A DNA stretch of 64,000 nucleotides from Candidatus Hydrogenedentota bacterium (GCA_045863295.1 BTWA01000001.1:244337-308336); one strand, 5' to 3'; counted from the first letter of the stretch, positions 24,316 to 56,847 are shown. The notes: generated by a model from the letters alone, not told the origin. Numbers and translations are program-made.

Positions 24316-26202
24316 GTGACGAATCAAACCTCCTACAAACCGTTTGGCCAACGCTTGGTTGAGCGCGGCGTCATCACCCAGCAACAGTTGGATGAGGCGC
24401 TGCACAAGAAGCAGACCACGATGGCCCACCGGAAGCTCGGTGAAATCCTCGTCCGTCTCAATTACATCAGCAAGACCCACATTACCGAAGGCCTGGCCGA
24501 TCAACTCGACATCGAAATTGTGCGGATTTCCGACCGGGAGATTCCGGAGCGCATCCGCAATCTTATTGATCCCAGTATTGCCACGTTGTACCGCGTGATC
24601 CCATTGGGTGAAGAGGGGAACACGTTGGTGGTGGCCACGGCCGACCCGACGAACATCAACCAGATAGACAATCTGGAGCGGCTGCTTGAGCGTCCGATCC
24701 GCACCCACCTTGCGACGCCGGAAGAAATCACGGCGGCGCTGGGGAAGTACTACGGCATGGCCGAAAAGACGGTGGAGAGCATGTTGTCCACCGTGAGCAG
24801 CGCGAGCACGATGAGCACGCTGAGCACCATGTCGAACGTCAGTTCCATGTCGTCCATGAGCAGCGTGGGCAGCAGCATGTCGGCGAGCGACATCAGCCTG
24901 AGCAGCATCAGCATGGACAGCATCGAGATGGACGATGTGAAGACGCCGGGCGGCGCGACGGACGACATGGATGATGCGGACAGCCCGGTTGTCAAATACA
25001 TCAACAAGCTGATACTTGAAGCGTTCCGCCTTCGGGCGAGTGATATTCACGTGGAGCCGGGCAAGATCGATTTGAAGGTGCGTTACCGGATTGACGGTGT
25101 GTTGCACTTGATGCCGCCGCCTCCCAAGCGGGCGCAGAAATCGATCATATCGCGTCTGAAGCTGATGGCCGGCATGGACATCAGCGAACGCCGCATTCCC
25201 CAGGACGGCCGCATCAAGATCAATCTTGCGGGCAAGATGGTGGATTTGCGCGTCAGCGCGCTGCCGGCCGTGCACGGCGAATCCGTCGTGATGCGTATTT
25301 TGGACAAGAGCGGTCTGTTGTTGGGCGTGGGTCAGTTGGGCTTTTCGCCCGATGTGCAGCGGCTTTGGGAAGACATTCTGGCATCGGGCACGGGCGTGGT
25401 TCTGGTGACGGGCCCGACGGGTTCCGGCAAAACGACGACCCTGTACGCATCGCTGCACCAGTTGAACAAGTCCGACACCAAGTTGATCACGGTGGAAGAT
25501 CCCGTTGAATACCAGTTGACGGGTATTAATCAGGTACAGATCCACCACGACATTGGCTGGAACTTTGCGCGTGCGTTGCGCGCGATTTTCCGTCAGGACC
25601 CTGACATCGTGATGGTTGGTGAAATTCGTGACCAGGAAACGGCGGAAATCGCGATCAAGGCGGCGTTGACGGGTCACCTTGTGTTTTCGACCTTGCATAC
25701 GAACGACGCGCCGAGCGCGTTCCTTCGCCTGATCGACGTGGGCATTCGTCCGTTCCTGGTGGCCGCGGGTATTCGCGCGGTGCTGGGGCAACGGCTGGTG
25801 CGGACGATTTGCAGCAACTGCAAAGAAAGCTACACGCCGACCGATCTTGAAATAGAGCGCATGGCATTGCCCGACGTGGACTGGGCGCACGCGGAATTGT
25901 TTCACGGCAAGGGATGCGAGAACTGCAACAACACGGGATACTCCGGACGTCTGGGCGTGTACGAATTGCTGGTGAACACGGACGAAATCCGGACCATGAT
26001 TATGAGCGGCGCACCTTCCGGTCAGTTACGCCGGACGGCCCGAATCAACGGCATGCTTACGATGCGCGACGACGGCTGGCGCAAGTGTTTGAGCGGCATC
26101 ACGACCGTCGAAGAAGTAATCCGCGTGACGCAGCCGGACGAACCTATAAAGCGGATTCTGGGCGGAAACGGACAAGCGAAGGAGACGGTCCATGGCGTAT
26201 GA
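24316..26202 (+). CDS. pilB: Type IV pilus extension ATPase PilB-like #1 (Ser/Met-rich linker)
   Basis: MshEN-like N-terminus; RASDIHVEP; GPTGSGKTTT; RQDPDIVMVGEIRD; CSNC..CENC. Confidence 0.85.
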   Translation: MTNQTSYKPFGQRLVERGVITQQQLDEALHKKQTTMAHRKLGEILVRLNYISKTHITEGLADQLDIEIVRISDREIPERIRNLIDPSIATLYRVIPLGEEGNTLVVATADPTNINQIDNLERLLERPIRTHLATPEEITAALGKYYGMAEKTVESMLSTVSSASTMSTLSTMSNVSSMSSMSSVGSSMSASDISLSSISMDSIEMDDVKTPGGATDDMDDADSPVVKYINKLILEAFRLRASDIHVEPGKIDLKVRYRIDGVLHLMPPPPKRAQKSIISRLKLMAGMDISERRIPQDGRIKINLAGKMVDLRVSALPAVHGESVVMRILDKSGLLLGVGQLGFSPDVQRLWEDILASGTGVVLVTGPTGSGKTTTLYASLHQLNKSDTKLITVEDPVEYQLTGINQVQIHHDIGWNFARALRAIFRQDPDIVMVGEIRDQETAEIAIKAALTGHLVFSTLHTNDAPSAFLRLIDVGIRPFLVAAGIRAVLGQRLVRTICSNCKESYTPTDLEIERMALPDVDWAHAELFHGKGCENCNNTGYSGRLGVYELLVNTDEIRTMIMSGAPSGQLRRTARINGMLTMRDDGWRKCLSGITTVEEVIRVTQPDEPIKRILGGNGQAKETVHGV

Positions 26203-27310
26203 GATGGTCAGCCTGTTGCGCATGTTGATTGACCGTGAAGGGTCTGACCTTCATCTTGCTGTGGGCAACCCTCCGGTAGGCCGGGTTCACGGGCATTTGC
26301 AGTATTTTGGCGACGATCCGATGACATCCGACGACACCGAACGCCTGATGAAGAGTATTGCTTCGGTGGACAACCAGCAGGAATTGCAGGAAGTCGGCGG
26401 TTCGGACTTTGGGTTTGCGTTTGAAGACATTGCGCGTTTCCGCGTGTCCATCTTCAAACAGAAGGGCATGGTTGGGCTGGTGTTGCGGTTGATTCCGAAC
26501 CGCATTTTGACCTTTGAAGAAATCGGTTTGCCGCAGTCGTTGAAGAAGGTGATCAATCAGCCCCGCGGGTTGATCCTGGTGACCGGCCCGACGGGGTCGG
26601 GCAAGAGCACGAGCCTTGCGACGATGATCGACTGGCTCAACTCCGAAATGGACCATCACATTATCACGATCGAAGATCCGATCGAATATTACCACCACCA
26701 TAAGAAGAGCATTATCACGCAGCGCGAAGTGGGTGTGGACGTGCCGACGTTCTCCGAAGCGTTGCGGCGCGCGTTGCGGCAGGATCCGGACATCATTCTG
26801 GTCGGTGAAATGCGCGACCTGGATACGATCGGTGCGGCGGTGACGGCAGCTGAAACGGGCCACTTGGTGTTTGGCACGCTGCACACGACGGGCGCGGTGC
26901 GTACGATTGACCGGTTGGTGGACGCGTTTCCGACCAACCAACAGGAACAGATCCGCACGCAGCTTGCGGGTAACCTGAAGTCGATCATTTCGCAGACGCT
27001 GATTCCGCGCAAGAGCGGTTTCGGCCGCGTGGCGGCGTTTGAGGTGATGATCACGACGCCGGCCATTCAGAACCTGATTCGTGAGAACAAGTCGTACCGT
27101 ATTACGTCGGCCATTCAGACCGGCCACAAATACGGCATGAACCTTTTGGACGAACATTTGATTGCCCTTTACCGCAAGGGGCTGGTGAAATACGAAGACT
27201 GCCTGTCCAAATGCCAGATGCCGGAGGAGTTCGAAGCGAACGTGAAGGCATTGGCGGGCGGCCAGTCTCCCGGCGGGAAGCCGGGCGGCGGCGGATCCGC
27301 GGCGGCATAA
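26192..27310 (+). CDS. pilT: Type IV pilus retraction ATPase
   Basis: GSDLHL; GPTGSGKSTSLA; EDPIEY; LRQDPDIILVGEMRD; AAETGHLVFGTLHT; AIQNLIRE (AIRNLIRE motif). Confidence 0.95.
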   Translation: MAYEMVSLLRMLIDREGSDLHLAVGNPPVGRVHGHLQYFGDDPMTSDDTERLMKSIASVDNQQELQEVGGSDFGFAFEDIARFRVSIFKQKGMVGLVLRLIPNRILTFEEIGLPQSLKKVINQPRGLILVTGPTGSGKSTSLATMIDWLNSEMDHHIITIEDPIEYYHHHKKSIITQREVGVDVPTFSEALRRALRQDPDIILVGEMRDLDTIGAAVTAAETGHLVFGTLHTTGAVRTIDRLVDAFPTNQQEQIRTQLAGNLKSIISQTLIPRKSGFGRVAAFEVMITTPAIQNLIRENKSYRITSAIQTGHKYGMNLLDEHLIALYRKGLVKYEDCLSKCQMPEEFEANVKALAGGQSPGGKPGGGGSAAA

Positions 27311-27329
27311 GGCGGCGAGGTAGCGCACA

Positions 27330-29081
27330 ATGGCAGTGGTACGCGACAGACAACTTGGCGACATGCTCGTAGACATGGGCGTGATCAGTCCGCTTGAACT
27401 TGACGAAGCGTTGCAGCGGCAACGGCTCACGGGCGAGATGCTGGGCCGTGTGCTGGTCAAGATGGGGCTGTGCGACGAGCAGGACGTGGTCGATGCGCTG
27501 GGCATGCAACAGGGCATGGAGCGGATCGACGTCACCAAGTTGAAGGTGGGTGACGATGTCCTGAGCAAAATTCCGGCGGACGTGGCGAAGTTCTACATGG
27601 TGGCGCCGGTTCGTTTCAAAGACGGACGTTTGGTGGTTGCGCTGGCGAATCCGCTCGATCTGTCCGTGGTGGACGAGTTGCAGCGCGTGACGGGATTGCA
27701 TATTCAGGGCGCGATCAGCAATGAGGCGGAAGTCGCGCAATTCATCAAATCGAATTATTCCTTCGAAGCGGATTCCATTCAGGAGACGTTGAAGAATCTG
27801 ATCGAACGGGTGGGCGAACGCGAGCTGACGATGGAAGAACTGGGCACGCAGGAAATTGTCGGCGACGTCGACAATCTGGTGCAGTTGGCCCAGGAACCCG
27901 ATGTCATCAAGATCGTAAATCTGGTGTTGCTTGACGCGGTGACGCGGCGGGCATCGGATATTCACTTCGAGACCTACGAAGAGGATTTCCGCATTCGCAT
28001 CCGCATTGACGGCGTGTTGCAGGAAGTGACGAGTCCGCCCAAGGGCATGTCCTTGGCGCTGGTATCCCGCGTCAAGGTCATGTGCAGTATGGACATTGGC
28101 GAGCGGCGGCTGCCGCAGGACGCGCGCATTGACTTGAAGATTGGCGATTCGGAAGTGGACATCCGCGTTGCGACCTTGCCGACGTTGTACGGCGAAAACG
28201 TCGTGATGCGTATTTTGGACAAGACTTCGGTGAAAGCGGATCTGGAAAAGATTGGCATTCATCCCGCGACGTTGAAGAAGATTAAGAACGTTATTGCCAA
28301 GCCGAACGGGATTTTTCTCGTGACCGGCCCCACCGGATCGGGCAAGACGACGACGCTGTATTCCTGTCTTAATGACTTGAACCAGGTGGGCGTGAAGATC
28401 ATTACGACCGAAGACCCGGTGGAATTACAGATCGACCGGATTGTGCAGGTTCAGGTACGCGAGGAAGTGGGACTGACGTTCGCGGCGTGCCTCCGGTCCA
28501 TCCTCCGGCAGGACCCGGACATTGTGATGGTGGGTGAAATCCGCGACTTGGAGACGGCGCAAATCGCCGTCGAGGCGTCGCTCACGGGCCACTTGGTGCT
28601 GAGCACCTTGCACACGAACAGCGCGCCGGAAACGATCACGCGTTTGCTTGATATGGATTTGGAACCGTTCTTGATCGTGTCCTCGCTGGAGGCGATTTTG
28701 GCGCAGCGGCTGGTGCGCACGTTGTGCCGGTATTGCCGCGAGAAATACCGTCCCGACGACGAAGAGATGGACTTGCTGGGGCTTCCCGACAGTTGGCGCA
28801 AAGATCCGGGGCTTGGGTTCTTCAAGCCGGTGGGGTGTCCCGCGTGCGACTATATCGGATATCAGGGCCGCGTGGGTCTGTTTGAAATGCTTGCGGTGGA
28901 CGAGACGATCAAGGATTTGATTTTGAATCGCGCGATGGCCTTCGAGATCCGCGCGCATGCGCGCAAGGCCCTGGGCATGCGCACCCTGCGCGAAGAGGGA
29001 CTGATCAAGTGCGCGCAAGGCATCACAAGCGCGGCGGAGATTCTGGCGCATACGGACAAGTTTGACGACGACTTGGTTTAA
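27330..29081 (+). CDS. pilB: Type IV pilus extension ATPase PilB-like #2
   Basis: RQLGDMLVDMG MshEN-like; RASDIHFE; GPTGSGKTTT; LRQDPDIVMVGEIRD; CRYC..CPAC. Confidence 0.88.
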   Translation: MAVVRDRQLGDMLVDMGVISPLELDEALQRQRLTGEMLGRVLVKMGLCDEQDVVDALGMQQGMERIDVTKLKVGDDVLSKIPADVAKFYMVAPVRFKDGRLVVALANPLDLSVVDELQRVTGLHIQGAISNEAEVAQFIKSNYSFEADSIQETLKNLIERVGERELTMEELGTQEIVGDVDNLVQLAQEPDVIKIVNLVLLDAVTRRASDIHFETYEEDFRIRIRIDGVLQEVTSPPKGMSLALVSRVKVMCSMDIGERRLPQDARIDLKIGDSEVDIRVATLPTLYGENVVMRILDKTSVKADLEKIGIHPATLKKIKNVIAKPNGIFLVTGPTGSGKTTTLYSCLNDLNQVGVKIITTEDPVELQIDRIVQVQVREEVGLTFAACLRSILRQDPDIVMVGEIRDLETAQIAVEASLTGHLVLSTLHTNSAPETITRLLDMDLEPFLIVSSLEAILAQRLVRTLCRYCREKYRPDDEEMDLLGLPDSWRKDPGLGFFKPVGCPACDYIGYQGRVGLFEMLAVDETIKDLILNRAMAFEIRAHARKALGMRTLREEGLIKCAQGITSAAEILAHTDKFDDDLV

Positions 29082-29187
29082 TCGTAGCTGGTCTGGCGGC
29101 CGGCCGATGGATGAATTGGCGGATAGTGCGCGGCGCGTCGGCCGGCATTAATCCGGATTCCCCGGAAGGGGAATGAGGAGACGAACG

Positions 29188-30426
29188 GTGCCGAAGTTTG
29201 CATACAAAGCCATGGACAAACAGGGCAAGCCGATTTTCGGGGTGATCGAAGCCGAGAATCAGGCCCTGGCGATCAACGACGTTCGCAACCTGGGTTTGTA
29301 TCCGACGACCATCCGCGAGGCGCGCAAGAGCGACGAAAAGCGCGCGCGCAAGAAGAAGGGCGGCGTCAACGAGCTTTATTTCGGCGGCGTGAAGACGAAG
29401 CAGATCGTGGTGATGACCCGTCAGCTCGCCACGCTGATCGACGCGGGCCTTCCGCTGTTGCGCAGCATTAACGTGCTAATCGCGCAGCAGAAGCCCTCCA
29501 AACTGAAAGACATTTTGCGGGACATTTCGGCGGACATTCAGTCCGGTACGACGTTTTCCGAGGCGTTGGCGAAGCATCCGAAGCAGTTCGACCGCTTGTT
29601 TGTGAACATGGTTCGCGCGGGTGAGGTCGGCGGTATGCTGGAAGTGGTGTTGAACCGGCTTGCGATTTTCATGGAACGCCGCCAAGCGCTGAAACGGCGC
29701 GTGCGCGGCGCGATGATTTATCCGGTTTGCGTCGTCATATTCGCGGCGGGCATCGTGTTGTTCTTGTTGTCGTTCGTGGTGCCCCAGTTCGCGGAAGTGT
29801 TTTCCGATTTCGGCGCGAAGTTGCCGTGGATGACGCAGTTTTTGATTCAGTGCGGCGATTTCGTGAAGTACAAGTGGTGGCAGATGGCGTTGTGGTTCAA
29901 CGGGACCATCATCACACTGAAGGTCATGTCCAAGATCAAGACGGTGAAGCGGATCATGGATCGCGTGGTGCTCAAGCTGCCGCTGGTCGGCGACCTGGTG
30001 ACCAAGGTGTCCGTGGCGCGTTTTGCCCGTACGCTGGGAACGCTGATCACGTCCGGCGTGCCGATTCTTCAGTCGTTGCGCATCACCAAGGAAACGATCG
30101 GCAACGAAGTGATTGAGAACGCGATTCAAAAGGTGCACGACAGCATCAAGGAAGGCGATACCATCGCGGCGCCGCTCGACGAGGCGAAAGTGTTCCCCGC
30201 CATGGTGGTGAACATGATCGACGTTGGCGAGGAAACCGGCGCGCTCGACGCGATGTTGATGAAAGTGGCGGATATTTACGACGCGGAAGTCGAGGAAGCC
30301 GTGGAGACGATGTTGCGGATGATGGAACCCGCGATCATCATTTTCCTGGGCGGCATCATCGGGTTCATCGTCATTGCCTTGTATTTGCCGATATTCACAC
30401 TGGCCGACGTTATCAGCGGCCAGTAA
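29188..30426 (+). CDS. pilC: Type IV pilus platform protein
   Basis: GTG start after GAGGAG; PKFAYKA; TRQLATLIDAGLP; VRAGEVGGML; GEETGALDAML. Confidence 0.93.
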   Translation: MPKFAYKAMDKQGKPIFGVIEAENQALAINDVRNLGLYPTTIREARKSDEKRARKKKGGVNELYFGGVKTKQIVVMTRQLATLIDAGLPLLRSINVLIAQQKPSKLKDILRDISADIQSGTTFSEALAKHPKQFDRLFVNMVRAGEVGGMLEVVLNRLAIFMERRQALKRRVRGAMIYPVCVVIFAAGIVLFLLSFVVPQFAEVFSDFGAKLPWMTQFLIQCGDFVKYKWWQMALWFNGTIITLKVMSKIKTVKRIMDRVVLKLPLVGDLVTKVSVARFARTLGTLITSGVPILQSLRITKETIGNEVIENAIQKVHDSIKEGDTIAAPLDEAKVFPAMVVNMIDVGEETGALDAMLMKVADIYDAEVEEAVETMLRMMEPAIIIFLGGIIGFIVIALYLPIFTLADVISGQ

Positions 30427-30543
30427 AGATGCGGCGCCGGGGTTGTACCCCGGCGGACGAAGCAACGGAACTCATCCGCATCGGGGCGGAGAACGCAGAC
30501 GGGATCGATGCCGGCAGGCGGCGACCCGCAGGAGTGTATGGAC

Positions 30544-32913: not shown

Positions 32914-32923
32914 GACGAACGAC

Positions 32924-49417: not shown

Positions 49418-49556
49418 GGAATCAAAGATTTAGGTACCCTTTTTCTGGTGTTACAGGGCAGTATTTACCCTGTGGCTTGGGATTAGTCGTGAATGCTTGC
49501 ATGCCAAGGCGTTGAGTGGGGGACGTAACGGCCGCGAGCGCCGAAAAGGTGACACC

Positions 49557-51857
49557 ATGGCGAATCTTAAACGAACCCGGGCCAAGAAGCGGTTGGTGCT
49601 GGACGTAGGGGCCAGCGCGGTACGGCTTTGCGAGCTTTCGCAGACCAAGACGGGTTACCAACTCACGCGCTACATGCAACGTGAGTTTCCCATCACGCCC
49701 GACATGAGCGAAGAAGATCAGCTCGCCGCGCGCGTCGAAGTGGTGAAGGCGCTATTGAAAGAATCCAAAGTGCGCCACAAGAAAACCGTGTTCGGCGTTC
49801 CCGGTCAATCGGTGTTCACGCGTACCCGCATGTTGCCTCCCGTCCCTGAGTTTAAACTTACGCAAATCGTTCGTTACGAAATCCAACAGCAAATTCCTTT
49901 CGCGCTCGATCAGATCGCCCATGATTTCCAGGTATTGGAACGCACTGAAGCCGGCGGATACGACGTGCTGATGGCGGCAATCAAAGTGGACGTCGTCGAG
50001 AAGCGCCTCGAATTGGTCAAGCAGATCAAGCGTCAGATCGACATTGTCGATGTAAGCCCATTGTCCGCGTACAACTGGCTGAAGTCGACCGGCGAATTTG
50101 GCGAACAGGGCGAATGCGTCGCCCTGGTGGATGTGGGCGCCGCGACCACCGACATTGTGATTGAGCGCGAAGGCAAATTCCGCTTTACGCGCAGCCTGAA
50201 TATCGGCGGCAACGACGTGACCTCCGCGCTGGCGCGCGAATTCAACATGGAATGGCCCAAGGCCGAACAGTTGAAACGCGAACGCGGTTTCGCACCCTCG
50301 GGCGACGCGCAAAAAGACGGCAAGGGCGGCGAAGTCATAGGCTCGGTGCTGAACCGGCTGGTTTCCGAAGTCAACCGGTCGTTTGCCTATTTCCGTTCGC
50401 AACCCGGCGGCGGTCCAGTATCTCGCGTGATATTGACTGGTGGCGGCGCGTGCCTTCGTAACATCGTGCCGTTCCTGCAGCGGCAATTGGGCGTGGAAGT
50501 GCGCATTGCCCAGCCGCTCGCGGGCCTGGCCATCGCGCCCGGCGCGCAAGAGGCCAACGATCATCCCGAACAAGCGGCCGTGGCATTGGGCTTGGCCTTG
50601 CGCTGCCGTCAGGCGGTGGCGCTTGAGCTGAATCTCATTCCGCCGCGCATCCTCGAAGCGGCGCGCACGCGCGAGCAGGTTTTCTATTGGGCATTGTCCG
50701 CCACCACGCTTGCGCTCATCATGCTTTCGATTATTCCCGTGGAAGCGCAGAAGAACAAGCAGGTCAATGAAAACATCGACCTGTTGAAGCGCACCATGTT
50801 CCAGTACGATCCCGATTTTCAGGCCCAGCAGAATCAGAATCCCTCGGTGTGGAATACCAAGTACGAAGCGCAACTCTCCGCGGCCAAGGCGGAAGTCGAT
50901 CGATACAAGGTTGACGTGGTCACGCTGGATAACTTCTACCGCGAGCGCGTGCCGTGGGTGCGCTACATGGGCATCATTAACGATGCGCGTCCCCGCGGCC
51001 AGATGATGGTATTCGATACCATGGAATCGAGCCTGATGCGCTCCCGCGCGGAGATGGTGCGTCAGGTGGCCCGCCGCAAGGCCAGCGGCCTTGGCAACGT
51101 GCAATTAAGCGCGGGCGACATGGCCGCGCTCAGCGGCGGGTCCGGATCGCTGATTCCCAAAGGCAAGGAGCAGATTTGGGAAGCCGTGCCGTTCGACAAT
51201 ATCGCAGCCGGCGTACCGCTGGATTACGGCCAGCCGGGCGTGGAGGGTTTGACGAGCACCCGCGGCGGATCGAGTTCGTCTTCCTCAGAAGAGAAGCCGC
51301 TCCCCAAGCCGGATCTGGTGAACGCGATTTCCATTTACGGGTACGCACAGAACAACCAGGTGGTGCTCGAATTCGTGGAGAACATCAAGAAGTCGGGCGA
51401 GTTTCTCGGTGGCCAGGGCGTGTACTTCGATCCGGCCACGGTGAATCCGGTTCCGGTTTCCGCGTTGTACAACGCCGGTTCCGAGCGTGCCGGCGCCCAA
51501 CCCAAGCCCGGCACGGGGCTCGGCGATTCCACGGCCTCGGTAAACGATGAAGACGAAGATCGGCGCGAAGGACGCCGGGGCGGCCTTCTGGGCGGCGGCG
51601 GCAGCAGCAGCAGCAGTTCCGGCCCAAGGTCGTATACCGAAAAGGATCTGGCGTTTTACAACCTGGAACAGAGCATTGTGACGTTTGAGGTTCATTTGCA
51701 GTTCAAGGACGAGGTGATTACCGAACAGAAAGTGCTTACTGCCGCGGATGAAGCCATTGCATCCGGCACCGCGGACAGCTATGGCGCTGCAAACGATGAA
51801 GAGGGAATGGACGAGGAGACGATGGAGCGCGAGCAGCGCCGTTTCCGGGGCCGGTAA
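49557..51857 (+). CDS. pilM: PilM fused to PilN-like domain
   Basis: LDVGASAVR; YEIQQQIPF; VDVGAATT; IGGNDVT; LTGGGA; GLALR; then LNLIP, TM, coiled coil and ISIYGYA (PilN-like). Confidence 0.88.
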   Translation: MANLKRTRAKKRLVLDVGASAVRLCELSQTKTGYQLTRYMQREFPITPDMSEEDQLAARVEVVKALLKESKVRHKKTVFGVPGQSVFTRTRMLPPVPEFKLTQIVRYEIQQQIPFALDQIAHDFQVLERTEAGGYDVLMAAIKVDVVEKRLELVKQIKRQIDIVDVSPLSAYNWLKSTGEFGEQGECVALVDVGAATTDIVIEREGKFRFTRSLNIGGNDVTSALAREFNMEWPKAEQLKRERGFAPSGDAQKDGKGGEVIGSVLNRLVSEVNRSFAYFRSQPGGGPVSRVILTGGGACLRNIVPFLQRQLGVEVRIAQPLAGLAIAPGAQEANDHPEQAAVALGLALRCRQAVALELNLIPPRILEAARTREQVFYWALSATTLALIMLSIIPVEAQKNKQVNENIDLLKRTMFQYDPDFQAQQNQNPSVWNTKYEAQLSAAKAEVDRYKVDVVTLDNFYRERVPWVRYMGIINDARPRGQMMVFDTMESSLMRSRAEMVRQVARRKASGLGNVQLSAGDMAALSGGSGSLIPKGKEQIWEAVPFDNIAAGVPLDYGQPGVEGLTSTRGGSSSSSSEEKPLPKPDLVNAISIYGYAQNNQVVLEFVENIKKSGEFLGGQGVYFDPATVNPVPVSALYNAGSERAGAQPKPGTGLGDSTASVNDEDEDRREGRRGGLLGGGGSSSSSSGPRSYTEKDLAFYNLEQSIVTFEVHLQFKDEVITEQKVLTAADEAIASGTADSYGAANDEEGMDEETMEREQRRFRGR

Positions 51858-51921: not shown

Positions 51922-52953
51922 ATGAAGCGTTCGCAGATAATGATGATAGTCGCCATCGTGGCCGTAGCGGCCGCGCTGGGTGCGGTATACAAATTCTACG
52001 TGCTCGAACGGCTGACCAAATTCGCCTCGGACGAGAAGTATCTGACCGCGCTCAAGACCAAGTACGAAAACATCAGCAAGACCTTTCACGGCACCAAGCC
52101 CGAAGTGGTGGTCGAGGCCTACGCCAACAAAGTACAGCCGTGGCTGGCCGCACTGGATGCCCGGACGGATTACTACACCCTTGGCGGCATCCGCGACATT
52201 GAACCGATTCCCGAGGGCGAAGACGCCCGCTGGTATTACATTCGCAAGGCCCCGGACATGGTGAGGACGATCCAGGAGACGGCGTACAAGCAGAACATCG
52301 GCGTGCCGCCCGATCTCTGGTTTCAATCGCCCCAGCCTCCCCGGCTGCAGGGCATCACCGTGGAAAAGCAGCACGTAGAACGCTGGCTCCAGAACATTCA
52401 AATGGGTTCCGGCATTGTGCAGCAGTTGCTCGATGCCAAGGCTCTGCGGGTCGATGCCATTGAACTGTGGCCCCGCCGGGAAGGATCGTTGCTGTACATC
52501 TATCACGTAGGCGTGAAGATGTGGATGAACATGGAGCAACTGGCCACGTTTCTCAACGATATGCTCAGCGATCGCCGCCGTTGTTTCTTTGTCGACAACA
52601 TCCGTATCCGGAATCCGTACGTGTTGTACGAGAATCCTCCGCTCCAGATCGATCTCGTGTATACCATGTACGAACTGAAACCGACGGCAGACAAAACCAA
52701 GCTTGCCGCTCCGGCCGCGGCTGCGCCGATGATTGCCAGTGCGGCACCGGTTACGCCTGCGCCGGCCGCGACGACGCCGGGCGTCACGCTTCCGGGCGCC
52801 ACGCCGCCCCCGGCCGCCGTGCCGGGTCTGAATCCGGAAGCGGCCGCGGCGCTGCAACAGGCGGCAAGCAGCCGCGATGAAGAGCGGACCGCGCGCCAAA
52901 GCCAGGGCAGCGGCGACTTTTTGGATTGGATATTGTCCTTCTTCCCGTTCTAA
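51922..52953 (+). CDS. PilO-like protein with Ala/Pro-rich tail
   Basis: N-terminal TM; LATFLNDM..FFVDNIRI ferredoxin-like pattern; position after pilMN. Confidence 0.55.
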   Translation: MKRSQIMMIVAIVAVAAALGAVYKFYVLERLTKFASDEKYLTALKTKYENISKTFHGTKPEVVVEAYANKVQPWLAALDARTDYYTLGGIRDIEPIPEGEDARWYYIRKAPDMVRTIQETAYKQNIGVPPDLWFQSPQPPRLQGITVEKQHVERWLQNIQMGSGIVQQLLDAKALRVDAIELWPRREGSLLYIYHVGVKMWMNMEQLATFLNDMLSDRRRCFFVDNIRIRNPYVLYENPPLQIDLVYTMYELKPTADKTKLAAPAAAAPMIASAAPVTPAPAATTPGVTLPGATPPPAAVPGLNPEAAAALQQAASSRDEERTARQSQGSGDFLDWILSFFPF

Positions 52954-53025: not shown

Positions 53026-53562
53026 ATGGACCAGATACAAAAATTCGGATTGATGCTGTGGGCGGTCAAGGAAAAGATCGTCCTGGCCTGCCTGGTCGCG
53101 ATCCTGAGTTGGCAGGTGTACAAGGTGGTCATGAGCGCCAACGGCGCCGATGCCGGAGTATCCGTCGGGCCGGTGACGCCGCCAAAGCCGGAGTTGACCG
53201 ATTTGCAGGCGATCGGAGCGGAATCGCCGGGGCCGCCCCCGGAGCCGATTCGGGTGCAGGAATTTACGGCCCTGGTCCGGCGCAACCCGTTTACGGTGTA
53301 TGGCAATGAGGCTGGCGAATCCAGCGGCTCCACGCAAGTGGAAGAAAAGCTGGATCTGACGCTTGAACGCATTGTTCCCTGGAGGGACAACACGGTACGG
53401 GCACAGATACGCACCAAGACATCGCGCGCAGAACCTTATTACGAAGGTCAGTCCGTGGAGGACTTCAGAGTGGACAAGATCGATGCGGAGAAGCAGGAAG
53501 TGACCATCTTTTCCTTCAAGCATCAAAAGCAGTTCGTTTTGAAAGTCGGACAGACCAGTTGA
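53026..53562 (+). CDS. PilP/GspC-like protein
   Basis: N-terminal TM; RRNPF motif; beta-rich C-terminus YEGQ..FRVDKID; position before the secretin. Confidence 0.55.
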   Translation: MDQIQKFGLMLWAVKEKIVLACLVAILSWQVYKVVMSANGADAGVSVGPVTPPKPELTDLQAIGAESPGPPPEPIRVQEFTALVRRNPFTVYGNEAGESSGSTQVEEKLDLTLERIVPWRDNTVRAQIRTKTSRAEPYYEGQSVEDFRVDKIDAEKQEVTIFSFKHQKQFVLKVGQTS

Positions 53563-53619
53563 GCGGAAGCAGAATCTTTTTGTAGTATTGACCGATAATC
53601 GCGGGAGGAATGTAATCCA

Positions 53620-56600
53620 ATGAATGGTCGACGGATGCGGAAGGCCGCCGGAATGTCGTTGCTGTGCCTGCTCGTGGCGGCAATGACGGTATACGGCGGA
53701 GCGTTGACTGCCCAGGCGCAGGGGGCATCGGGCGCCGTGGAAGCTCCAATTGTTACCGAGCCCCAACCCACCGCCGCGGAGAGCGGTCCCGAACCCCAGG
53801 GCGTGAGCCCGGCGGACGAGGCCTACAATGAAGGGGTGGCTCTCTACAACCGGGGCATGTTCCTGGAGGCCTTGAACAGTTTTAACAGGGCCCTTGCGAA
53901 CGATCCCAATCATCCTCACGCGAAGACCATGGCGGAACGCGCCCAGACGAAGTTACAGACCACGGCCGTAGGCCAGGAACCGGCTGTGCTTCAGACGTTC
54001 GAAACCTTCGAAGCCAAGCCCGCGGAATCGGAGACGACTTCCGATGCAGGCATTCCCGAATCGGCCGAAGAACTCCGCTACCAGACGGTGAAGGAACTGC
54101 TTGAGCAAGGCCAATTCCTGCTGGAGAACCGCAAGTTCGAACGTGCCCAGAAATTATTCGAGCGCGCCCTGATTATCGATCCCGAGAACAAGACCGCGGC
54201 CCGTCTGCTGCAAGAAGCGACAATCGGCACCTTTGACGAACGGCTTCCCCGCGAATGGCAGAAACTGGAAATCGACCGCCTCCGCATTCGCGAAAAGAGC
54301 GAACAAATCAAGCAACTCCCCGACGGCGCGGACGCATACGGCATCAAGGACATCACCATCAGCGTTCCGGTCGCCGAAGAAGAATTTGTCCGTGAAGAAG
54401 AAAAGACCGACATCGAAAAAGCGCTGGATGAATTCGTCTCCATTGAATTCGAAGAGGAACACATCAGCAATATTCTCGATTACATCGCGGAATACGCGAG
54501 CATCAACATCGTGCTCGACAGCCGCGTCGTAGACCCGCCGCGCCAACCGGTGCCGCAGGTCCAACCCGGCGTACCGGGCACAGTTCCCGGCGGCGTTCCC
54601 GGAATTCCCGGGCAGCCCGGTTTTGGCGCGCCCCAACCGTTCGGCGTTCCGGGTCAAGGATTTCAGCAACCAGTTCCCGTGCAACAGCCGGCCTTCGAAC
54701 CGACCGGCGATCCCGATGAAGATCGCCGGGCGTCTCGTCGAGGCGGCGGCCTCGGCAACATTCAGTTGCAGGGCGTCAACGGCCAGTTTGCGACCGGCCC
54801 CGGCGGCCAGCCTGTGTCGGATATCGTTTCCGACGGGTACACGGGCATCTTGAAATTGGATGACGTGCCTCTTCGCGATGCCCTCAAGGCTGTGCTCCGC
54901 CCCCTGAATCTTGATTTCAGCGTGCAACCTGGTTTCCTGTGGGTGAGCACGGCCGAAAAGATTCGGACCGAATCGTTCGAAGAAATGGAAACCCGCATCT
55001 ACGAACTGAAAAATGCGGGCGCGGAAACGCTCTTCAAGATTGTCGTGCAGAACCCCGGCGGACTTTCCGGCGGCGGCGGTGGCGGCTTCGGCGGCCAAGG
55101 CGGCGGTTTTGGCGGCCAGGGTGGTTTTGGCGGCGGTCAAGGCGGTTTTGGTGGCGGTGGCTTTGGTGGTCAAAGCGGCGGTTTTGGTGGCGGTGGTTTT
55201 GGCGGCCAAGGTGGCGGTGGCTTCGGCGGCGGTGGCTTTGGCGGTCAAAGCGGTGGTTTTGGCGGCGGTGGTTTTGGCGGCCAAGGTGGTGGTGGTTTTG
55301 GCGGCGGTGGCTTCGGCGGCGGTGGCTTTGGCGGCGGTCAGGGTGGTTTTGGCGGCGGTCAAGGCGGTGGCTTTGGCGGCGGTCAAGGCGGTTTTGGCGG
55401 TGGCCAGGGCGGTTTCGGCGGCGGCTCCATCCAGGTCTCCAATATCTCCCAACTGTTCTCCAACATTAACGACCAACTCGTCGGTGAACCGCCTGCGGTC
55501 ATTGGCATCAGCACGGTTGGCACAGGGCTCGATGCGCGCCAGGGTCAGCAAGGAGCGGGTTTGGGTGCAGGCGGCCGGCGTGACGACGAGTTGGGCGGCG
55601 GCGGCCTCGGCGGCGGCGGTCTTAGCGGCGGCCAGACGGTCGGTACTTCCGGCACGGGATCCAGCTTGGGCAGCTCCGGCGGCTTGGGCGGATTCCAGGG
55701 TCAAGCTGAATTGCTGACCATATTGCAGAGCGCCATTCCCGAGATTGTCGAACCGTTCACCGACGAAGTGTTGTCGTGGATGATCTTCAATCCCACAACC
55801 AACCAACTCATCGTGCACAACACGCCCAGCAATCTGAAGAAAATGGAAGCGATGATCCAGGATCTGGACATTACGCCGAAACAGGTCAGCATCGAAGCGA
55901 AGTTTTTGGCCATATCCGTGACGGATCTCGACAAGATCGGCTTCACGTGGGACCTGACCCTGAGCGATCAGAACAGCCGCAATCGCGTTATTGACGCCAT
56001 CGAAACGCCCGGCGTCTCCGATGCGGACGGCAACCCCGGCTATTTTGCCGATGTCAACGGCGACGGATCGAACGAGATTCTCCCGTTCTATACGCGTCCC
56101 GACGGCACCAACGTAATTAACAACACCGTATCCACCCTTACCGGTACAGGCGCGGTGAATCCCGGACCCGACGGCACGTTTGACCTGAATGCGGTCATCC
56201 TGCAAAACGAGGACGGCGATCAATTGAGCGTTATGATGGACTACCTCAACAGCCTGACGGAGACCGAGTTGTTGAGCGCGCCGCGCGTGACCACGATGAA
56301 CCGCAAACCGGCGGTCATCGCGGATATCCTGACGCAGACGTTCCAGACTCAGGTCTTCCAAGAAATCATTGTGAGCGATTCCGGGTTTGGCGGCGGCGAA
56401 ACGACTGCCTCGGTGCAGCAACCACAATTCTCCACCTTTACGTTCGGTATCGTGTTGTCCGTTACACCGCAAATCAGCGGCAGCAATCAGGTCCGGTTGT
56501 GGCTGAACCCGCAGGTGACCACGCAACAGGGACAAGACGAATTCATCGCGACGTCCACGGTGGACGGAAACACGCAAACCGCGACCATCCGTTTCCCGCG

Positions 56601-56847
56601 CGTGTCGATTCAATCCGTCTGGACCAACGTCATCGTGAACGACGGCGACACGCTTGTGCTGGGCGGGCTCATCACGGATCGCACGACGCGCGGCAAGACC
56701 AAGATGCCGTACGTGGCGGACATTCCGGTGATCGGCTACTTCTTCCGTGGCAAGTCGACGGAAATCACGCAATCGAGCCTGTTGATCTTCACCACGGTGA
56801 ACATCATCGATCCGACCGGTGCACGCTTCTTCGAAGCGGGCGCATAG
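53620..56847 (+). CDS. Secretin (PilQ-like) with N-terminal TPRs and FG/Gly-rich insertion
   Basis: Signal peptide; TPR helices; VSIEFEE; NQLIVHNTPSNL; QVSIEAKF; LSAPRVTTMN; GIVLSVTPQI; PYVADIPVIGYFF. Confidence 0.9.
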   Translation: MNGRRMRKAAGMSLLCLLVAAMTVYGGALTAQAQGASGAVEAPIVTEPQPTAAESGPEPQGVSPADEAYNEGVALYNRGMFLEALNSFNRALANDPNHPHAKTMAERAQTKLQTTAVGQEPAVLQTFETFEAKPAESETTSDAGIPESAEELRYQTVKELLEQGQFLLENRKFERAQKLFERALIIDPENKTAARLLQEATIGTFDERLPREWQKLEIDRLRIREKSEQIKQLPDGADAYGIKDITISVPVAEEEFVREEEKTDIEKALDEFVSIEFEEEHISNILDYIAEYASINIVLDSRVVDPPRQPVPQVQPGVPGTVPGGVPGIPGQPGFGAPQPFGVPGQGFQQPVPVQQPAFEPTGDPDEDRRASRRGGGLGNIQLQGVNGQFATGPGGQPVSDIVSDGYTGILKLDDVPLRDALKAVLRPLNLDFSVQPGFLWVSTAEKIRTESFEEMETRIYELKNAGAETLFKIVVQNPGGLSGGGGGGFGGQGGGFGGQGGFGGGQGGFGGGGFGGQSGGFGGGGFGGQGGGGFGGGGFGGQSGGFGGGGFGGQGGGGFGGGGFGGGGFGGGQGGFGGGQGGGFGGGQGGFGGGQGGFGGGSIQVSNISQLFSNINDQLVGEPPAVIGISTVGTGLDARQGQQGAGLGAGGRRDDELGGGGLGGGGLSGGQTVGTSGTGSSLGSSGGLGGFQGQAELLTILQSAIPEIVEPFTDEVLSWMIFNPTTNQLIVHNTPSNLKKMEAMIQDLDITPKQVSIEAKFLAISVTDLDKIGFTWDLTLSDQNSRNRVIDAIETPGVSDADGNPGYFADVNGDGSNEILPFYTRPDGTNVINNTVSTLTGTGAVNPGPDGTFDLNAVILQNEDGDQLSVMMDYLNSLTETELLSAPRVTTMNRKPAVIADILTQTFQTQVFQEIIVSDSGFGGGETTASVQQPQFSTFTFGIVLSVTPQISGSNQVRLWLNPQVTTQQGQDEFIATSTVDGNTQTATIRFPRVSIQSVWTNVIVNDGDTLVLGGLITDRTTRGKTKMPYVADIPVIGYFFRGKSTEITQSSLLIFTTVNIIDPTGARFFEAGA
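55069..55425 (+). repeat. In-frame GGFGG/GGQ low-complexity repeat (18 FG motifs, 119 aa)
   Basis: Read directly from the translation; includes a duplicated 25-aa unit GGGGFGGQSGGFGGGGFGGQGGGGF. Confidence 0.95.

What the first reader, a model, noticed from the sequence alone, without database searches (positions are those of the whole stretch)
24316..56847. Hybrid retractile type IV filament system with T2SS-style pilins and two giant candidate tip proteins
Seen: the machine has T4aP hallmarks (PilT, PilC, PilM/N/O/P-like, two PilB). Its filament genes look T2SS-like: a Cys-free major pilin with GspG motifs (DPWG..Y, S.G..DDI.NW) and a K-type tip pilin with GspK motifs expanded to ~2330 aa. 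A 2184-aa beta-helix/IPT protein replaces a recognisable PilY1, and the locus adds a PEGA-FGE lipoprotein and a TPR-secretin with an FG-repeat insert. Known: T2SS lacks PilT, and proteobacterial T4aP usually use disulfide-containing pilins and PilY1. The four-pilin cassette with a huge K-like member recalls Verru_Chthon cassettes. Inference: a distinct T4F subtype that deploys and retracts very large adhesins.
Basis: partly seen in the sequence, partly recalled or inferred. Interest (0 to 1): 0.85.

Follow-up and report, generated by a model that had tools for sequence, protein, structure and literature searches.

The report
Retractile pilus with giant cap protein
An uncultured bacterial phylum (Hydrogenedentota) keeps a conserved gene cluster for a retractable pilus whose fibre and tip look like those of a protein-secretion system, and whose tip subunit is about 2,300 residues long, far larger than any pilus subunit studied so far.

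Summary
Fifteen co-directional genes (24316-56847) encode two PilB-type ATPases, PilT, PilC, a ~250-aa pilin, three minor pilins and a 2,330-aa GspK-like pilin. They also encode a 2,184-aa exported beta-helix/IPT protein, a PEGA-FGE lipoprotein, a PilM-PilN fusion, two small membrane proteins and a TPR-secretin with a Gly/Phe repeat. A strong terminator closes the set.

The mosaic reading holds. Motors and secretin score nearest to solved T4aP proteins. The major pilin model is nearest to T2SS GspG (Z 8.1, against 4.1 or less for T4aP pilins). The giant K seems to keep its last beta-strand in cis, as GspK does. It is not a T2SS remnant: a complete ordinary T2SS lies directly upstream, and a canonical PilB-PilT pair lies elsewhere.

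The 2,184-aa protein is not PilY1-like. Its conserved C-terminal ~375 aa model as tandem beta-sandwiches ending in a conserved tail.

The layout, T2SS included, recurs in 7 of 7 relatives examined. Giant K occurs in 123 of 135 phylum genomes and the C-terminal module in 116 of 135.

Function (adhesion or capture with retraction) is inferred. The scan noted the front of this operon before, in another genome (e1-1245529). Verdict: new variant of a known kind.

The parts
24316..26202 (+). PilB1, extension-type ATPase (628 aa) with an N-terminal MshEN-type c-di-GMP motif
   Evidence: T2SSE 1.2e-130 and MshEN 1.9e-20. TIGR02538 604 bits (cut-off 675.65), GspE 586 bits, c-di-GMP motif NF053729 55.8 bits (cut-off 38). 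Nearest solved protein is Geobacter PilB at 506 bits, against GspE at 387 bits.
26192..27310 (+). PilT, retraction ATPase (372 aa)
   Evidence: TIGR01420 468.5 bits, over the 319.1 cut-off. Orthologues are 79-84% identical in 7 of 7 relatives.
27330..29081 (+). PilB2, second extension-type ATPase (583 aa), 37% identical to PilB1, with a c-di-GMP motif
   Evidence: T2SSE 3.4e-135. TIGR02538 603 bits and NF053729 62.1 bits. It forms its own clade with 91 support in the quick tree. Solved PilB scores 499 bits against GspE at 419 bits.
29173..30426 (+). PilC/GspF-type inner-membrane platform (417 aa)
   Evidence: T2SSF x2 at 4.2e-65. GspF TIGR02120 scores 429.1 bits, just over its 424 cut-off. Myxococcus PilC scores 428.2 bits, below its 700 cut-off.
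30508..31305 (+). Major pilin, GspG-like and Cys-free once matured (probable start at 30544)
   Evidence: N_methyl 2.2e-9. AF2 model pLDDT 94.5. Nearest structures are EpsG at Z 8.1 (109 of 119 residues aligned, 24% id) and PulG at Z 7.0, against T4aP pilins at Z 2.5-4.1.
31538..32449 (+). Minor pilin in the H position (303 aa)
   Evidence: N_methyl 2.3e-4 and a weak GspH match at 0.0075. The assignment rests on gene order.
32446..32913 (+). Minor pilin in the I position (155 aa)
   Evidence: N_methyl 3.7e-9. Weak PilV, GspI and GspJ N-terminal matches. Found in 7 of 7 relatives.
32897..34078 (+). Minor pilin in the J position (393 aa)
   Evidence: N_methyl 9e-6. The assignment rests on gene order. 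Found by tblastn in 6 of 7 relatives. In the seventh (G001) tblastn gave no match, but a 384-aa frame with a pilin-type N-terminus lies at that position.
34075..41067 (+). Giant GspK-like modular minor pilin (2,330 aa from the first ATG). It has 8 DxDxDG motifs and a lamin-tail domain. The extreme C-terminus is predicted to complete the N-terminal pilin fold.
   Evidence: GspK NF037980 2.7e-10, N-terminus only. hhalign against the phylum's GspK gives prob 93.6 over 87 columns. The C-terminal strands line up with GspK. The two halves are predicted to pack: score 0.76 against a best control of 0.08. LTD 2.1e-8. Present in 123 of 135 phylum genomes.
34123..34248 (+). Three tandem 42-bp hairpin repeats inside the 5' end of the giant K gene, absent from the orthologue consensus
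   Evidence: TRF reports period 42, 3.0 copies, 95% matches. The palindrome is visible. The orthologue consensus starts with a 7-residue leader.
41269..47823 (+). Exported 2,184-aa protein: signal peptide, right-handed beta-helix, IPT/TIG stalk, and a conserved C-terminal ~375-aa module with a conserved tail
   Evidence: Beta_helix 4e-9 and TIG 1.5e-19. The C-terminal module occurs in 93 clusters of 1.84 billion representatives. In full-length hits it sits at the C-terminal end. It is found in 116 of 135 phylum genomes. AF2 model pLDDT 81.8 shows tandem beta-sandwiches.
47944..49362 (+). Lipoprotein with three PEGA domains and an FGE-sulfatase-fold domain (472 aa)
   Evidence: FGE-sulfatase 1.6e-53 and PEGA 1.5e-32 in 3 stretches. 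EgtB 104 bits and GldK/PorK 96.8 bits, both far below their cut-offs. The lipobox was seen by eye. Found in 6 of 7 relatives; not found by tblastn in G091.
49497..51857 (+). PilM fused to a membrane span and a PilN-like periplasmic part (786 aa)
   Evidence: PilM_2 2.4e-49. TIGR01175 176.8 bits (cut-off 133) and Amuc_1101 family 245 bits (cut-off 650). PilN 21 bits, below its 22.8 cut-off.
51922..52953 (+). 343-aa membrane-anchored protein in the PilO/GspM position
   Evidence: No family match. Hydrophobic N-terminus. Homologue found in 5 of 7 relatives at the thresholds used.
53026..53562 (+). 178-aa membrane-anchored protein in the PilP position
   Evidence: No family match. Homologue found in 3 of 7 relatives at the thresholds used.
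53620..56847 (+). Secretin (1,075 aa) with N-terminal TPR repeats and a ~120-aa Gly/Phe low-complexity insert
   Evidence: Secretin 2.5e-30 and TPR_2 7.5e-11. PilQ 149.9, GspD 140.4 and MshL 132.1 bits, all below their cut-offs. Nearest solved protein is V. cholerae T4aP PilQ at 74 bits. A Gly-rich insert with F, Y or M is present in 6 of 6 secretins read.
56875..56901 (+). Terminator-like hairpin that closes the locus
   Evidence: 11-bp stem with 9 GC pairs, followed by a T run.
11129..23880 (+). Separate, complete T2SS (GspC, D, E, F, G, H, I, J, K, L and an M-like gene) directly upstream. The adjacency is conserved.
   Evidence: T2SSC+PDZ, GspD N0 + Secretin_N x3 + Secretin, T2SSE, T2SSF, T2SSK_1st 1.9e-17 and T2SSL. 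GspG lies at 17901-18341. T2SS genes lie directly upstream of PilB1 in 7 of 7 relatives.

Best explanation
This is a complete, single-operon type IV filament machine that is ancestral to, and so far found only in, the uncultured phylum Hydrogenedentota. It is distinct both from the genome's canonical T4aP motor pair and from the ordinary T2SS next to it.

Likely working, with what is shown and what is inferred:
- Two anciently diverged PilB ATPases, both carrying an MshEN c-di-GMP motif, and one PilT act on a PilC platform. The platform is held by a PilM-PilN fusion and two small membrane proteins (the genes and families are shown; their roles are inferred from those families).
- They polymerise and depolymerise a fibre of a ~250-residue GspG-like pilin through a TPR-secretin (inferred).
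- Assembly is primed by an H-I-J-K minor-pilin set. Its K member is a ~250-kDa modular pilin: an N-terminal pilin module, about 1,600 inserted residues rich in Ca-binding-type DxDxDG motifs plus a lamin-tail domain, and a C-terminal segment that returns to complete the pilin beta-sheet in cis, as in T2SS GspK (predicted).
- K therefore sits as a very large cap on the fibre tip (inferred).
- The next gene encodes an exported beta-helix head on an Ig-like stalk. Its conserved C-terminal module and tail are single-copy and almost as widespread in the phylum as K. It is most likely exported through this machine or displayed on it, as an adhesin or glycan-binding head (inferred from synteny only).
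- The expected output is PilT-driven attachment, or capture of particles or polymers (inferred).
For: Gene content and families.

PilT is over its curated cut-off (468.5 against 319.1 bits).

Both PilB copies and the secretin score higher against solved T4aP proteins than against T2SS ones:
- PilB1: 506 against 387 bits.
- PilB2: 499 against 419 bits.
- Secretin: 74 against 51 bits.

Major pilin: the AF2 model (pLDDT 94.5) is closest to EpsG (Z 8.1, rmsd 3.2, 109 of 119 residues aligned, 24% id) and PulG (Z 7.0). T4aP pilins reach Z 2.5-4.1. Foldseek's ten best rows are all T2SS major pseudopilins or a pseudopilus model, though only at E 0.08-0.3.

Giant K:
- N-terminal GspK match at 2.7e-10.
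- hhalign to the phylum's own GspK: prob 93.6, E 2e-7, 87 columns.
- The GRININTA motif and the last two strands align with GspK C-termini.
- No Glu at +5 after the RG|AAL site.
- Complex prediction on residues 58-520 with 2095-2330: score 0.76, best of 3 controls 0.08. That mark was reached by 116 of 157 solved complexes and 2 of 215 mismatched pairs. The runs agree in at least 70% of contacts, and the partner's pLDDT is 55-59. Strand 490-496 pairs with 2288-2295. GspK structures are solved, so this pass shows likeness to that fold.

Conservation:
- K is found in 123 of 135 phylum genomes, and in 82 of 86 high-quality ones.
- The C-terminal module of the large protein is found in 116 of 135 (80 of 86 high-quality), nearly always as one match per genome.
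- By my reading of the tables, the two matches share a contig within about 12 kb in at least 40 genomes.
- The full gene order recurs in 7 of 7 relatives fetched, including one from another family of the phylum.
- Named homologues of the pilin and of K are all 'Candidatus Hydrogenedentes', apart from one 'FCB group' pilin.

A separate canonical PilB (689 bits, over its cut-off) with an adjacent PilT lies elsewhere in the genome. A strong terminator ends the locus.
Against: - There is no evidence of expression or of a fibre.
- The two proteins in the PilO and PilP positions match no family.
- The relations among PilB1, PilB2, canonical PilB and GspE are unresolved in the only tree built. It was a quick tree with no outside references.
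- PilC scores as GspF, just over that cut-off. The PilM-PilN fusion has the architecture of GspL. A secretion-type reading is therefore not excluded.
- The link between the 2,184-aa protein and the filament rests on synteny and co-conservation only.
- About 2,000 residues of K have no recognised fold: a PDB profile search gave 0 hits, and Pfam finds only LTD.
- The C-terminal profile comparison with GspK is weak on its own (prob 25).
- The complex pass may come from the model's memory of GspK.
- Some genes were not detected by tblastn in some relatives: the H-position pilin in 4 of 7, the 178-aa gene in 4 of 7, and PEGA-FGE in 1 of 7.
Confidence: 0.6

Rival explanations
1. This is a second, secretion-type machine: a T2SS-like piston that kept PilT. 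A short GspG-like pseudopilus with a GspK-type cap pushes the neighbouring 2,184-aa beta-helix protein, and perhaps others, through the secretin. No long pilus is made.
For: The major pilin is GspG-like in fold and motifs. K has the cis terminal strand of GspK. PilC passes the GspF cut-off. The PilM-PilN fusion resembles GspL in architecture. A large exported protein with a conserved C-terminal module is encoded inside the locus in nearly every genome. Denise et al. 2019 (PMC6668835, passages read) report a Bacteroidetes 'T2SS' that clusters with T4aP.
Against: A complete conventional T2SS already lies next door. PilT is conserved at 79-84% identity in 7 of 7 loci. Both PilBs and the secretin lean towards solved T4aP proteins. 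No GspC-type gene is recognised in the locus. A 250-kDa cap is hard to reconcile with a periplasmic piston.
Confidence: 0.22
2. This is an ordinary lineage-specific T4aP. The two giant genes are unrelated surface proteins that happen to lie in the operon and take no part in the filament.
For: Most of K and of the 2,184-aa protein match no pilus family. Large surface proteins are common neighbours. Two more large genes lie upstream of the T2SS.
Against: K begins with a pilin-type hydrophobic N-terminus in the K position of an H-I-J-K set and matches GspK. Its two ends are predicted to form one pilin fold. Both giants are single-copy, nearly phylum-wide and fixed in position. The major pilin is not PilA-like.
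Confidence: 0.08
3. This is a DNA- or polymer-uptake pilus. The giant cap binds extracellular DNA or polysaccharide through its lamin-tail domain and Ca-dependent loops, and PilT pulls the ligand to the secretin.
For: The lamin-tail segment is the most conserved part of K across distant relatives: many matches cover only residues ~1510-1690, and the invariant columns are listed. K carries eight DxDxDG motifs. PilT is present. It is recalled, not tested here, that tip minor pilins bind DNA in competence pili and that LTDs occur in extracellular nucleases.
Against: No ComEA, ComEC or nuclease genes lie in the window next to the locus. No DNA-binding domain was recognised. The ligand is pure inference.
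Confidence: 0.1

Closest known systems
Type IVa pilus machines (Myxococcus xanthus, Geobacter, Thermus, Pseudomonas)
   Same: PilB, PilT, PilC, PilM, a secretin, and a major pilin followed by minor pilins. Both PilB copies score best against solved T4aP PilB/PilF, and the secretin against T4aP PilQ.
   Different: There are two PilB paralogues in one operon. PilM and PilN are fused. The major pilin is GspG-like rather than PilA-like. No PilY1 was recognised, and K carries its own terminal strand. There is a 2,330-aa K, and extra PEGA-FGE and beta-helix proteins. All equivalog scores fall below their cut-offs except PilT and generic PilM.
Type II secretion pseudopilus: GspG with the GspH-I-J-K tip (GspIJK 3CI0, EpsG 4LW9, PulG 5WDA)
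   Same: The major subunit fold and the DPWG / DDI.NW-type motifs. The H-I-J-K order. The K N-terminus lacks Glu5. The NxNTA motif and the C-terminal strand are supplied in cis.
   Different: PilT is present. No GspC was recognised. The pilin is twice the size of GspG. K is about seven times the size of the neighbouring GspK, which is ~350 aa once matured. A true T2SS is encoded separately upstream.
Verru_Chthon cassette proteins A-D (TIGR02600, 02598, 02599, 02596)
   Same: A four-gene pilin-like set whose K-like member is giant. There are weak N-terminal matches to A, B, C and D. Earlier scan notes describe these cassettes as orphan tip sets.
   Different: Scores are far below the cut-offs: A gets 39 bits against 332, and only model positions 1-58 are matched. 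Here the set sits inside a full machine with motors and a secretin, in another phylum. K is about twice as long.
MSHA pilus with MshQ, and PilY1/PilC adhesins (Ellison et al. 2026, PMC13533445)
   Same: A large protein gene directly follows the I-J-K-type minor pilins. The ATPases carry MshEN c-di-GMP motifs. The large protein has a conserved extreme C-terminus.
   Different: According to that paper (abstract and sections 5 and 10 read), PilY1 and MshQ supply the last strand of K in trans. Here K appears to have it in cis. The large protein's C-terminal module is beta-sandwich, not a propeller.
CpaL of the Caulobacter Tad pilus, and modular type IV pilins (Raynaud et al. 2021, PMC8179133)
   Same: A pilin module with grafted modules. 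For CpaL, an N-terminal pilin-like domain is completed by the protein's own extreme C-terminus, with a dispensable middle part (PMC13533445, section 10).
   Different: The scale differs: CpaL is ~600 aa, and the most extreme modular pilin in the 2021 InterPro survey was 860 aa (passage read), against 2,000-3,080 aa here. The filament class is also different.
Akkermansia Amuc_1098-1101 pilus-like cluster
   Same: The PilM fusion's best curated match is the Amuc_1101 family (245 bits, 1.9e-72). The secretin matches Amuc_1098 (122.6 bits).
   Different: Both scores are far below the cut-offs (650 and 750). The rest of that cluster was not compared here.

Membership tests
Type IVa pilus (T4aP) | PilT-family retraction ATPase encoded with the system | tested here: met
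   TIGR01420 468.5 bits against a cut-off of 319.1.
Type IVa pilus (T4aP) | PilB extension ATPase (equivalog TIGR02538) | tested here: inconclusive
   604 and 603 bits, below the 675.65 cut-off, with GspE close behind at 586 and 588. Solved PilB scores above solved GspE by 80-120 bits. The tree is unresolved.
Type IVa pilus (T4aP) | PilM-N-O-P alignment complex | tested here: inconclusive
   PilM is met (TIGR01175 176.8 bits against 133). PilN scores 21 bits, below 22.8. The two following genes match nothing.
Type IVa pilus (T4aP) | PilA-type major pilin | tested here: not met
   Myxococcus PilA model scores 34.8 bits against 400, N-terminus only. Structural Z to T4aP pilins is 2.5-4.1, against 8.1 to EpsG.
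Type IVa pilus (T4aP) | PilY1/PilC tip adhesin with a C-terminal propeller | tested here: inconclusive
   No PF05567 match in the 2,184-aa protein. Its conserved C-terminal 400 aa model as beta-sandwiches. The genome-wide search found none, but the control genomes were silent too. The middle of the protein was not folded.
Type II secretion system | GspG-type major pseudopilin | tested here: met
   EpsG Z 8.1 and PulG Z 7.0, and the motifs are present. The GspG equivalog model matches only the N-terminus, at 37.1 bits against 88.85.
Type II secretion system | GspK-type cap with its C-terminal strand in cis | tested here: met
   One search gives a score of 0.76 against a best control of 0.08. 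That pass may reflect likeness to solved GspK.
Type II secretion system | GspC and GspL/GspM, and no PilT | tested here: not met
   PilT is present. No T2SSC, T2SSL or T2SSM match occurs in the locus at E 0.01 or better, while the upstream T2SS has them.
Verru_Chthon cassette (TIGR02596/98/99/02600) | Scores over the curated cut-offs for proteins A, B, C and D | tested here: not met
   A scores 39.0 against 332.3, B 17.5 against 51.4, C 24.2 against 256.5 and D 23.7-25.5 against 70.
MSHA pilus | MshE-type ATPase, MshL secretin, and MshQ after the minor pilins | tested here: inconclusive
   The MshEN c-di-GMP motif is met in both PilBs (55.8 and 62.1 bits against 38). MshL scores 132.1 against 250.2. 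No MshQ model was available to test.
Modular type IV pilin (sense of Raynaud et al. 2021) | N-terminal class III signal / pilin module plus additional modules in one chain | tested here: met
   The RG|AAL hydrophobic N-terminus matches GspK. An LTD and about 2,000 further residues follow.
T9SS PorK/GldK | Equivalog score, and T9SS partner genes | tested here: not met
   GldK TIGR03525 scores 96.8 bits against 350. No other T9SS family was seen in the window.

The most novel reading that the evidence does not exclude
This is a separate class of type IV filament, restricted to Hydrogenedentota, in which T4aP-type extension and retraction motors drive a T2SS-type fibre. Its cap is a ~250-kDa Ca-binding modular GspK. 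The co-conserved beta-helix stalk protein docks on that cap through its conserved C-terminal module and tail. Both giants pass through a secretin whose conserved Gly/aromatic low-complexity insert acts as a flexible gate or seal. The always-adjacent T2SS works with it as one 45-55 kb capture-and-export apparatus.
Probability: 0.18. Interest if true: 0.8.

Novelty: new variant of a known kind. Interest (0 to 1): 0.6.

Why it matters
This locus places a giant GspK-like cap inside a full machine with extension motors, a retraction motor and a secretin. Such caps were previously catalogued only as orphan 'Verru_Chthon' cassettes. The locus therefore gives those unstudied giant pilins a concrete mechanical setting.

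It is also a natural test of the 2026 beta-strand-addition model of tip licensing. Here a K subunit seems to close its fold in cis across an insertion of about 1,600 residues, while a PilY1-positioned partner with a conserved tail still follows it.

It shows how far the modular-pilin principle can be pushed: 2,000-3,000 residues, against 860 in the 2021 survey.

It describes the main surface apparatus of a widespread sludge and sediment phylum that has no cultured members and no literature on pili. The two searches on the phylum and pili returned nothing on the subject, judged from titles and the openings of abstracts.

Tried and rejected
Searches that gave nothing usable:
- ESM Atlas on K residues 1500-2330: no usable hit.
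- Profile of 28 K orthologues against PDB sequences: 0 hits at E up to 1.
- hhalign of the K C-terminus against GspK: only the NxNTA motif, prob 25.
- PF05567 (PilY1) over the whole genome: no match, but the control genomes were silent too, so this is uninformative.
- Expression: no RNA holder was listed.
- Laying four DNA runs on the K leader: contigs broke at the hairpin array, and the hairpin occurs at high depth in other contigs. Nothing could be learned about copy number.

Tree: the careful maximum-likelihood search did not finish in 288 s. Only the quick tree was obtained. It has no outside reference sequences and leaves the deep relations open.

Cross-phylum distribution of the layout could not be tested. 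Every collection search available would have filled up with own-phylum hits.

Rejected readings:
- The 2,184-aa protein as PilY1 (fold).
- Membership in the Verru_Chthon families.
- A T2SS remnant.
- A recent PilB duplication: the two copies are 37% identical and form separate clades.

The single complex-prediction job went to the two ends of K. Docking of the 2,184-aa protein's C-terminal module on K or on the J-position pilin was therefore not modelled.

MacSyFinder TFF-SF models are not available here.

Full report
WHAT IS THERE

Between 24316 and 56847 lie fifteen genes, all on the + strand.
- PilB1 (628 aa)
- PilT (372 aa; TIGR01420 468.5 bits, cut-off 319.1)
- PilB2 (583 aa)
- PilC (417 aa)
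- a pilin of about 250 residues
- three further pilins (303, 155 and 393 aa), each with the N-terminal methylation motif
- a 2,330-aa protein, called K below
- a 2,184-aa protein
- a PEGA x3 + FGE-fold lipoprotein
- a 786-aa PilM fused to a membrane span and a weak PilN match
- two small membrane proteins that match no family
- a 1,075-aa secretin with N-terminal TPR repeats

The secretin carries a Gly/Phe low-complexity insert at residues ~482-603 (DNA repeats at 55074-55425). A strong terminator-like hairpin at 56875-56901 closes the set. The one qualification is that 'PilO/P-like' rests on position alone.

SURROUNDINGS CHANGE THE READING

A complete, conventional T2SS lies directly upstream, at 11129-23880:
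- GspC with PDZ
- GspD with N0 and three Secretin_N domains
- GspE and GspF
- a 146-aa GspG at 17901-18341
- three minor pseudopilins
- a normal-sized GspK (T2SSK_1st 1.9e-17)
- GspL and an M-like gene

Elsewhere the genome holds a PilB that passes the T4aP equivalog cut-off (689 bits), with a PilT beside it. In all there are about nine PilB/GspE-like and nine PilT-like genes. Only one prepilin peptidase was found. The locus is therefore neither a degraded T2SS nor the cell's only pilus. It is an additional, specialised system.

ORGANISM AND CONSERVATION

Source names on homologues of the pilin and of K read 'Candidatus Hydrogenedentes bacterium', with one 'FCB group' pilin. This agrees with earlier scan notes on this genome.

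Phylum-wide counts:
- K has a match in 123 of 135 genomes of the phylum and in 82 of 86 high-quality ones. Open frames run from 2,000 to 3,080 aa.
- In 5.8 billion proteins only 45 relatives of its C-terminal third were scored. All are annotated 'hypothetical' or 'lamin tail domain-containing'.

Gene order in the seven relatives for which I fetched 45-55 kb, one of them from a different family of the phylum:
- The order is the same in 7 of 7: T2SS genes, then PilB1-PilT-PilB2-PilC-pilin-minor pilins-K-large protein-(PEGA-FGE)-PilM/N-small genes-secretin.
- Misses at the tblastn thresholds used: the H-position pilin in 4 of 7, the 343-aa gene in 2 of 7, the 178-aa gene in 4 of 7, and PEGA-FGE in 1 of 7.
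- The J-position pilin gave no tblastn match in 1 of 7 (G001), where a 384-aa frame with a pilin-type N-terminus does lie at that position.
- The full-length 2,184-aa query missed two genomes in which a large frame is nevertheless present.

WHICH KIND OF MACHINE

Curated models do not decide between T4aP and T2SS.
- PilB1 and PilB2 score 604 and 603 bits on PilB and 586 and 588 on GspE. All four are below their cut-offs.
- PilC just passes GspF (429.1 against 424).

Against solved proteins the motors lean towards T4aP:
- PilB1: 506 bits to Geobacter PilB, 387 to GspE.
- PilB2: 499 against 419.
- Secretin: 74 bits to a T4aP PilQ, 51 to the best GspD.

A quick tree of the genome's ATPases plus orthologues gives separate, supported clades for PilB1 (100), PilB2 (91), GspE (100) and the locus PilT (100). 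Their mutual order is left open. No outside references were available, and the careful search did not finish. PilB1 and PilB2 are 37% identical, so they are old paralogues. Both carry the MshE-type c-di-GMP motif over its cut-off.

THE FILAMENT IS T2SS-LIKE

The pilin was modelled with 58 homologues (pLDDT 94.5).
- An all-against-representatives structural search puts EpsG first (Z 8.1, rmsd 3.2, 109 of 119 residues aligned, 24% identity) and PulG second (Z 7.0).
- The next row is a T4b pilin at Z 4.8. T4aP pilins reach Z 2.5-4.1.
- Foldseek agrees in ranking, but only at E 0.08-0.3.
- The DPWG..Y and GGGDDINNW motifs are conserved in the family.

The pilin is about twice the length of GspG. 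BLAST against the neighbouring GspG aligns only the N-terminal helix.

THE GIANT K

Four lines of evidence make K a GspK-type pilin with enormous insertions.
1. It lies in the K position after three pilins.
2. After an RG|AAL site it has a hydrophobic N-terminus without Glu at +5. That region matches GspK (2.7e-10) and Verru_Chthon A (2.5e-10). It also matches the phylum's own GspK by profile comparison (prob 93.6, E 2e-7, 87 columns).
3. The 'GR(I/V)N(I/V)NTA' motif and the last two strands line up with the C-termini of six GspK sequences.
4. A complex prediction packed residues 58-520 against residues 2095-2330.
   - The score was 0.76; the best of 3 controls was 0.08.
   - That mark was reached by 116 of 157 solved complexes and 2 of 215 mismatched pairs.
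   - The runs agree in at least 70% of contacts, and the partner's pLDDT is 55-59.
   - Strand 490-496 pairs with strand 2288-2295, and the N-terminal helix touches both.

GspK structures are solved, so the pass in point 4 shows likeness to that fold. It does not prove the fold.

Between these ends lie about 1,600 residues in which Pfam sees only a lamin-tail domain and a PDB profile search sees nothing. K has eight DxDxDG motifs, many of them invariant.

Ellison et al. 2026 (PMC13533445; abstract and sections 5 and 10 read) report that the last strand of the K subunit is supplied in trans by PilY1, PilC or MshQ in pili. In T2SS GspK and in CpaL it is supplied in cis. By that criterion this tip is of the cis, T2SS/CpaL type.

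Raynaud et al. 2021 (PMC8179133; passages read) found an 860-residue protein to be the most extreme modular pilin in their survey.

THE 2,184-AA PROTEIN

It has a signal peptide (by eye), a right-handed beta-helix near the N-terminus and IPT/TIG domains. Its last ~375 residues form a module with these properties:
- It occurs in only 93 clusters among 1.84 billion representatives. In the full-length hits it sits at the C-terminal end of proteins of 1,000-2,600 aa.
- A profile of it finds 116 of 135 phylum genomes (80 of 86 high-quality), almost always once per genome. A single sequence finds 66 of 135.
- By my reading, it shares a contig with K, within about 12 kb, in at least 40 genomes.

I scanned 28 of the 93 listed relatives, chosen among the longer ones. 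Twenty have the beta-helix (17 over the cut-off) and 14 have TIG. Both ends are therefore conserved, and the stalk between them varies in length.

The module's model (pLDDT 81.8) is a string of beta-sandwiches:
- Foldseek gives SiiE BIg and cadherin-like repeats at E about 7e-5.
- VIA gives FN3/Ig at Z up to 7.5, which is generic.

It is not a PilY1 propeller. The chain ends in a short conserved tail with a Q-P-(I/V)-K core, kept even in the most distant relative read. Whether that tail or module docks on the tip, on the secretin or on the neighbouring lipoprotein was not tested.

MECHANISM PROPOSED

The genes, families, fold assignments and conservation are shown. The rest is inferred from those families.
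- The two PilBs and PilT, on PilC and a PilM/N scaffold, extend and retract a GspG-like fibre through the TPR-secretin.
- The fibre is primed by an I-J-K-type complex.
- The self-closing K subunit of that complex puts a ~250-kDa, probably Ca-stabilised cap on the tip.
- The beta-helix stalk protein is exported or displayed by the same machine.

Rivals, in order of weight:
- a secretion-type piston that kept PilT, with the large protein as its cargo (0.22)
- an uptake pilus for DNA or polymers (0.10)
- an ordinary pilus with unrelated neighbouring genes (0.08)

NOVELTY

- Mosaic or 'generic' type IV filament systems are catalogued in bulk. Denise et al. 2019 (PMC6668835; passages read) list 884 generic systems, find T4aP paraphyletic, and report a Bacteroidetes 'T2SS' that clusters with T4aP.
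- Giant K-like pilins are catalogued as Verru_Chthon cassette A.
- Modular pilins are an accepted concept.
- This scan noted the front of the same operon in another Hydrogenedentota genome (e1-1245529).

What is new is the combination: a full retractile machine with a GspG-like fibre, a 2,000-3,000-residue cis-closing K, a co-conserved stalk protein with a private C-terminal module, a secretin with a conserved Gly/aromatic insert, and fixed adjacency to a T2SS, all across a whole uncultured phylum.

Literature searches found nothing on this:
- 'Hydrogenedentes' with 'type IV pili': 3 papers.
- 'Hydrogenedentota' with 'pilus': 1 paper.
- 'Verru_Chthon cassette': 0 papers.

None of the papers returned concerns pili of this phylum, judged from the listings only. 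Supplements of the cited papers were not read and may hold relevant system tables.

Noticed in passing
window 11129-23880: A complete, conventional T2SS (GspC through an M-like gene, with GspG at 17901-18341) lies directly upstream of the locus. The adjacency is kept in 7 of 7 relatives examined, so the two systems form one conserved supercluster of about 45 kb.
   Followed up: partly
window 2535-7865 and 8012-10528: Two large genes lie upstream of the T2SS: 1,776 aa with IPT/TIG, and 838 aa with no Pfam match. They share a ~75-residue similar segment. Homologues lie in the same place in G053. They may be T2SS cargo.
   Followed up: partly
window 34123-34248: Three tandem 42-bp units, each holding a 10+10 palindrome, sit in the 5' end of the giant K gene, where orthologues have a 7-residue leader. 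In-frame ATG and TTG codons inside the repeats could be the real start. The strict palindrome occurs only 7 times in the genome. It is common in sludge metagenome contigs, which break at it.
   Followed up: partly
window 55060-55700 (secretin residues ~482-695): The secretin's low-complexity insert is conserved as a feature but not in sequence. It reads GGFGG here and in one relative, and GGYGG, SYGSSGSRSG or GGMGG in others (6 of 6 secretins read). The C-terminal part of the PilM/N fusion also has Ser/Gly-rich tracts.
   Followed up: partly
G000:C1:143340-146148 (outside the window): A canonical PilB (689 bits, over the TIGR02538 cut-off) with an adjacent PilT. Further PilM/secretin (C28) and PilB/PilC/GspL-like/secretin (C31) clusters suggest at least four type IV filament systems in this genome.
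   Followed up: no
window 29173-30426: The platform protein of this PilT-containing locus passes the curated GspF equivalog cut-off (429.1 against 424 bits). Automatic annotation would therefore call it a T2SS protein. Several pilin homologues are indeed named 'type II secretion system protein' by their sources.
   Followed up: no
window 38840-38980 (K residues ~1590-1635): This is the most conserved stretch of the giant K, with many invariant aromatic and acidic residues. It lies at the end of the split lamin-tail domain and is what distant relatives match. It is a likely ligand or partner site.
   Followed up: no
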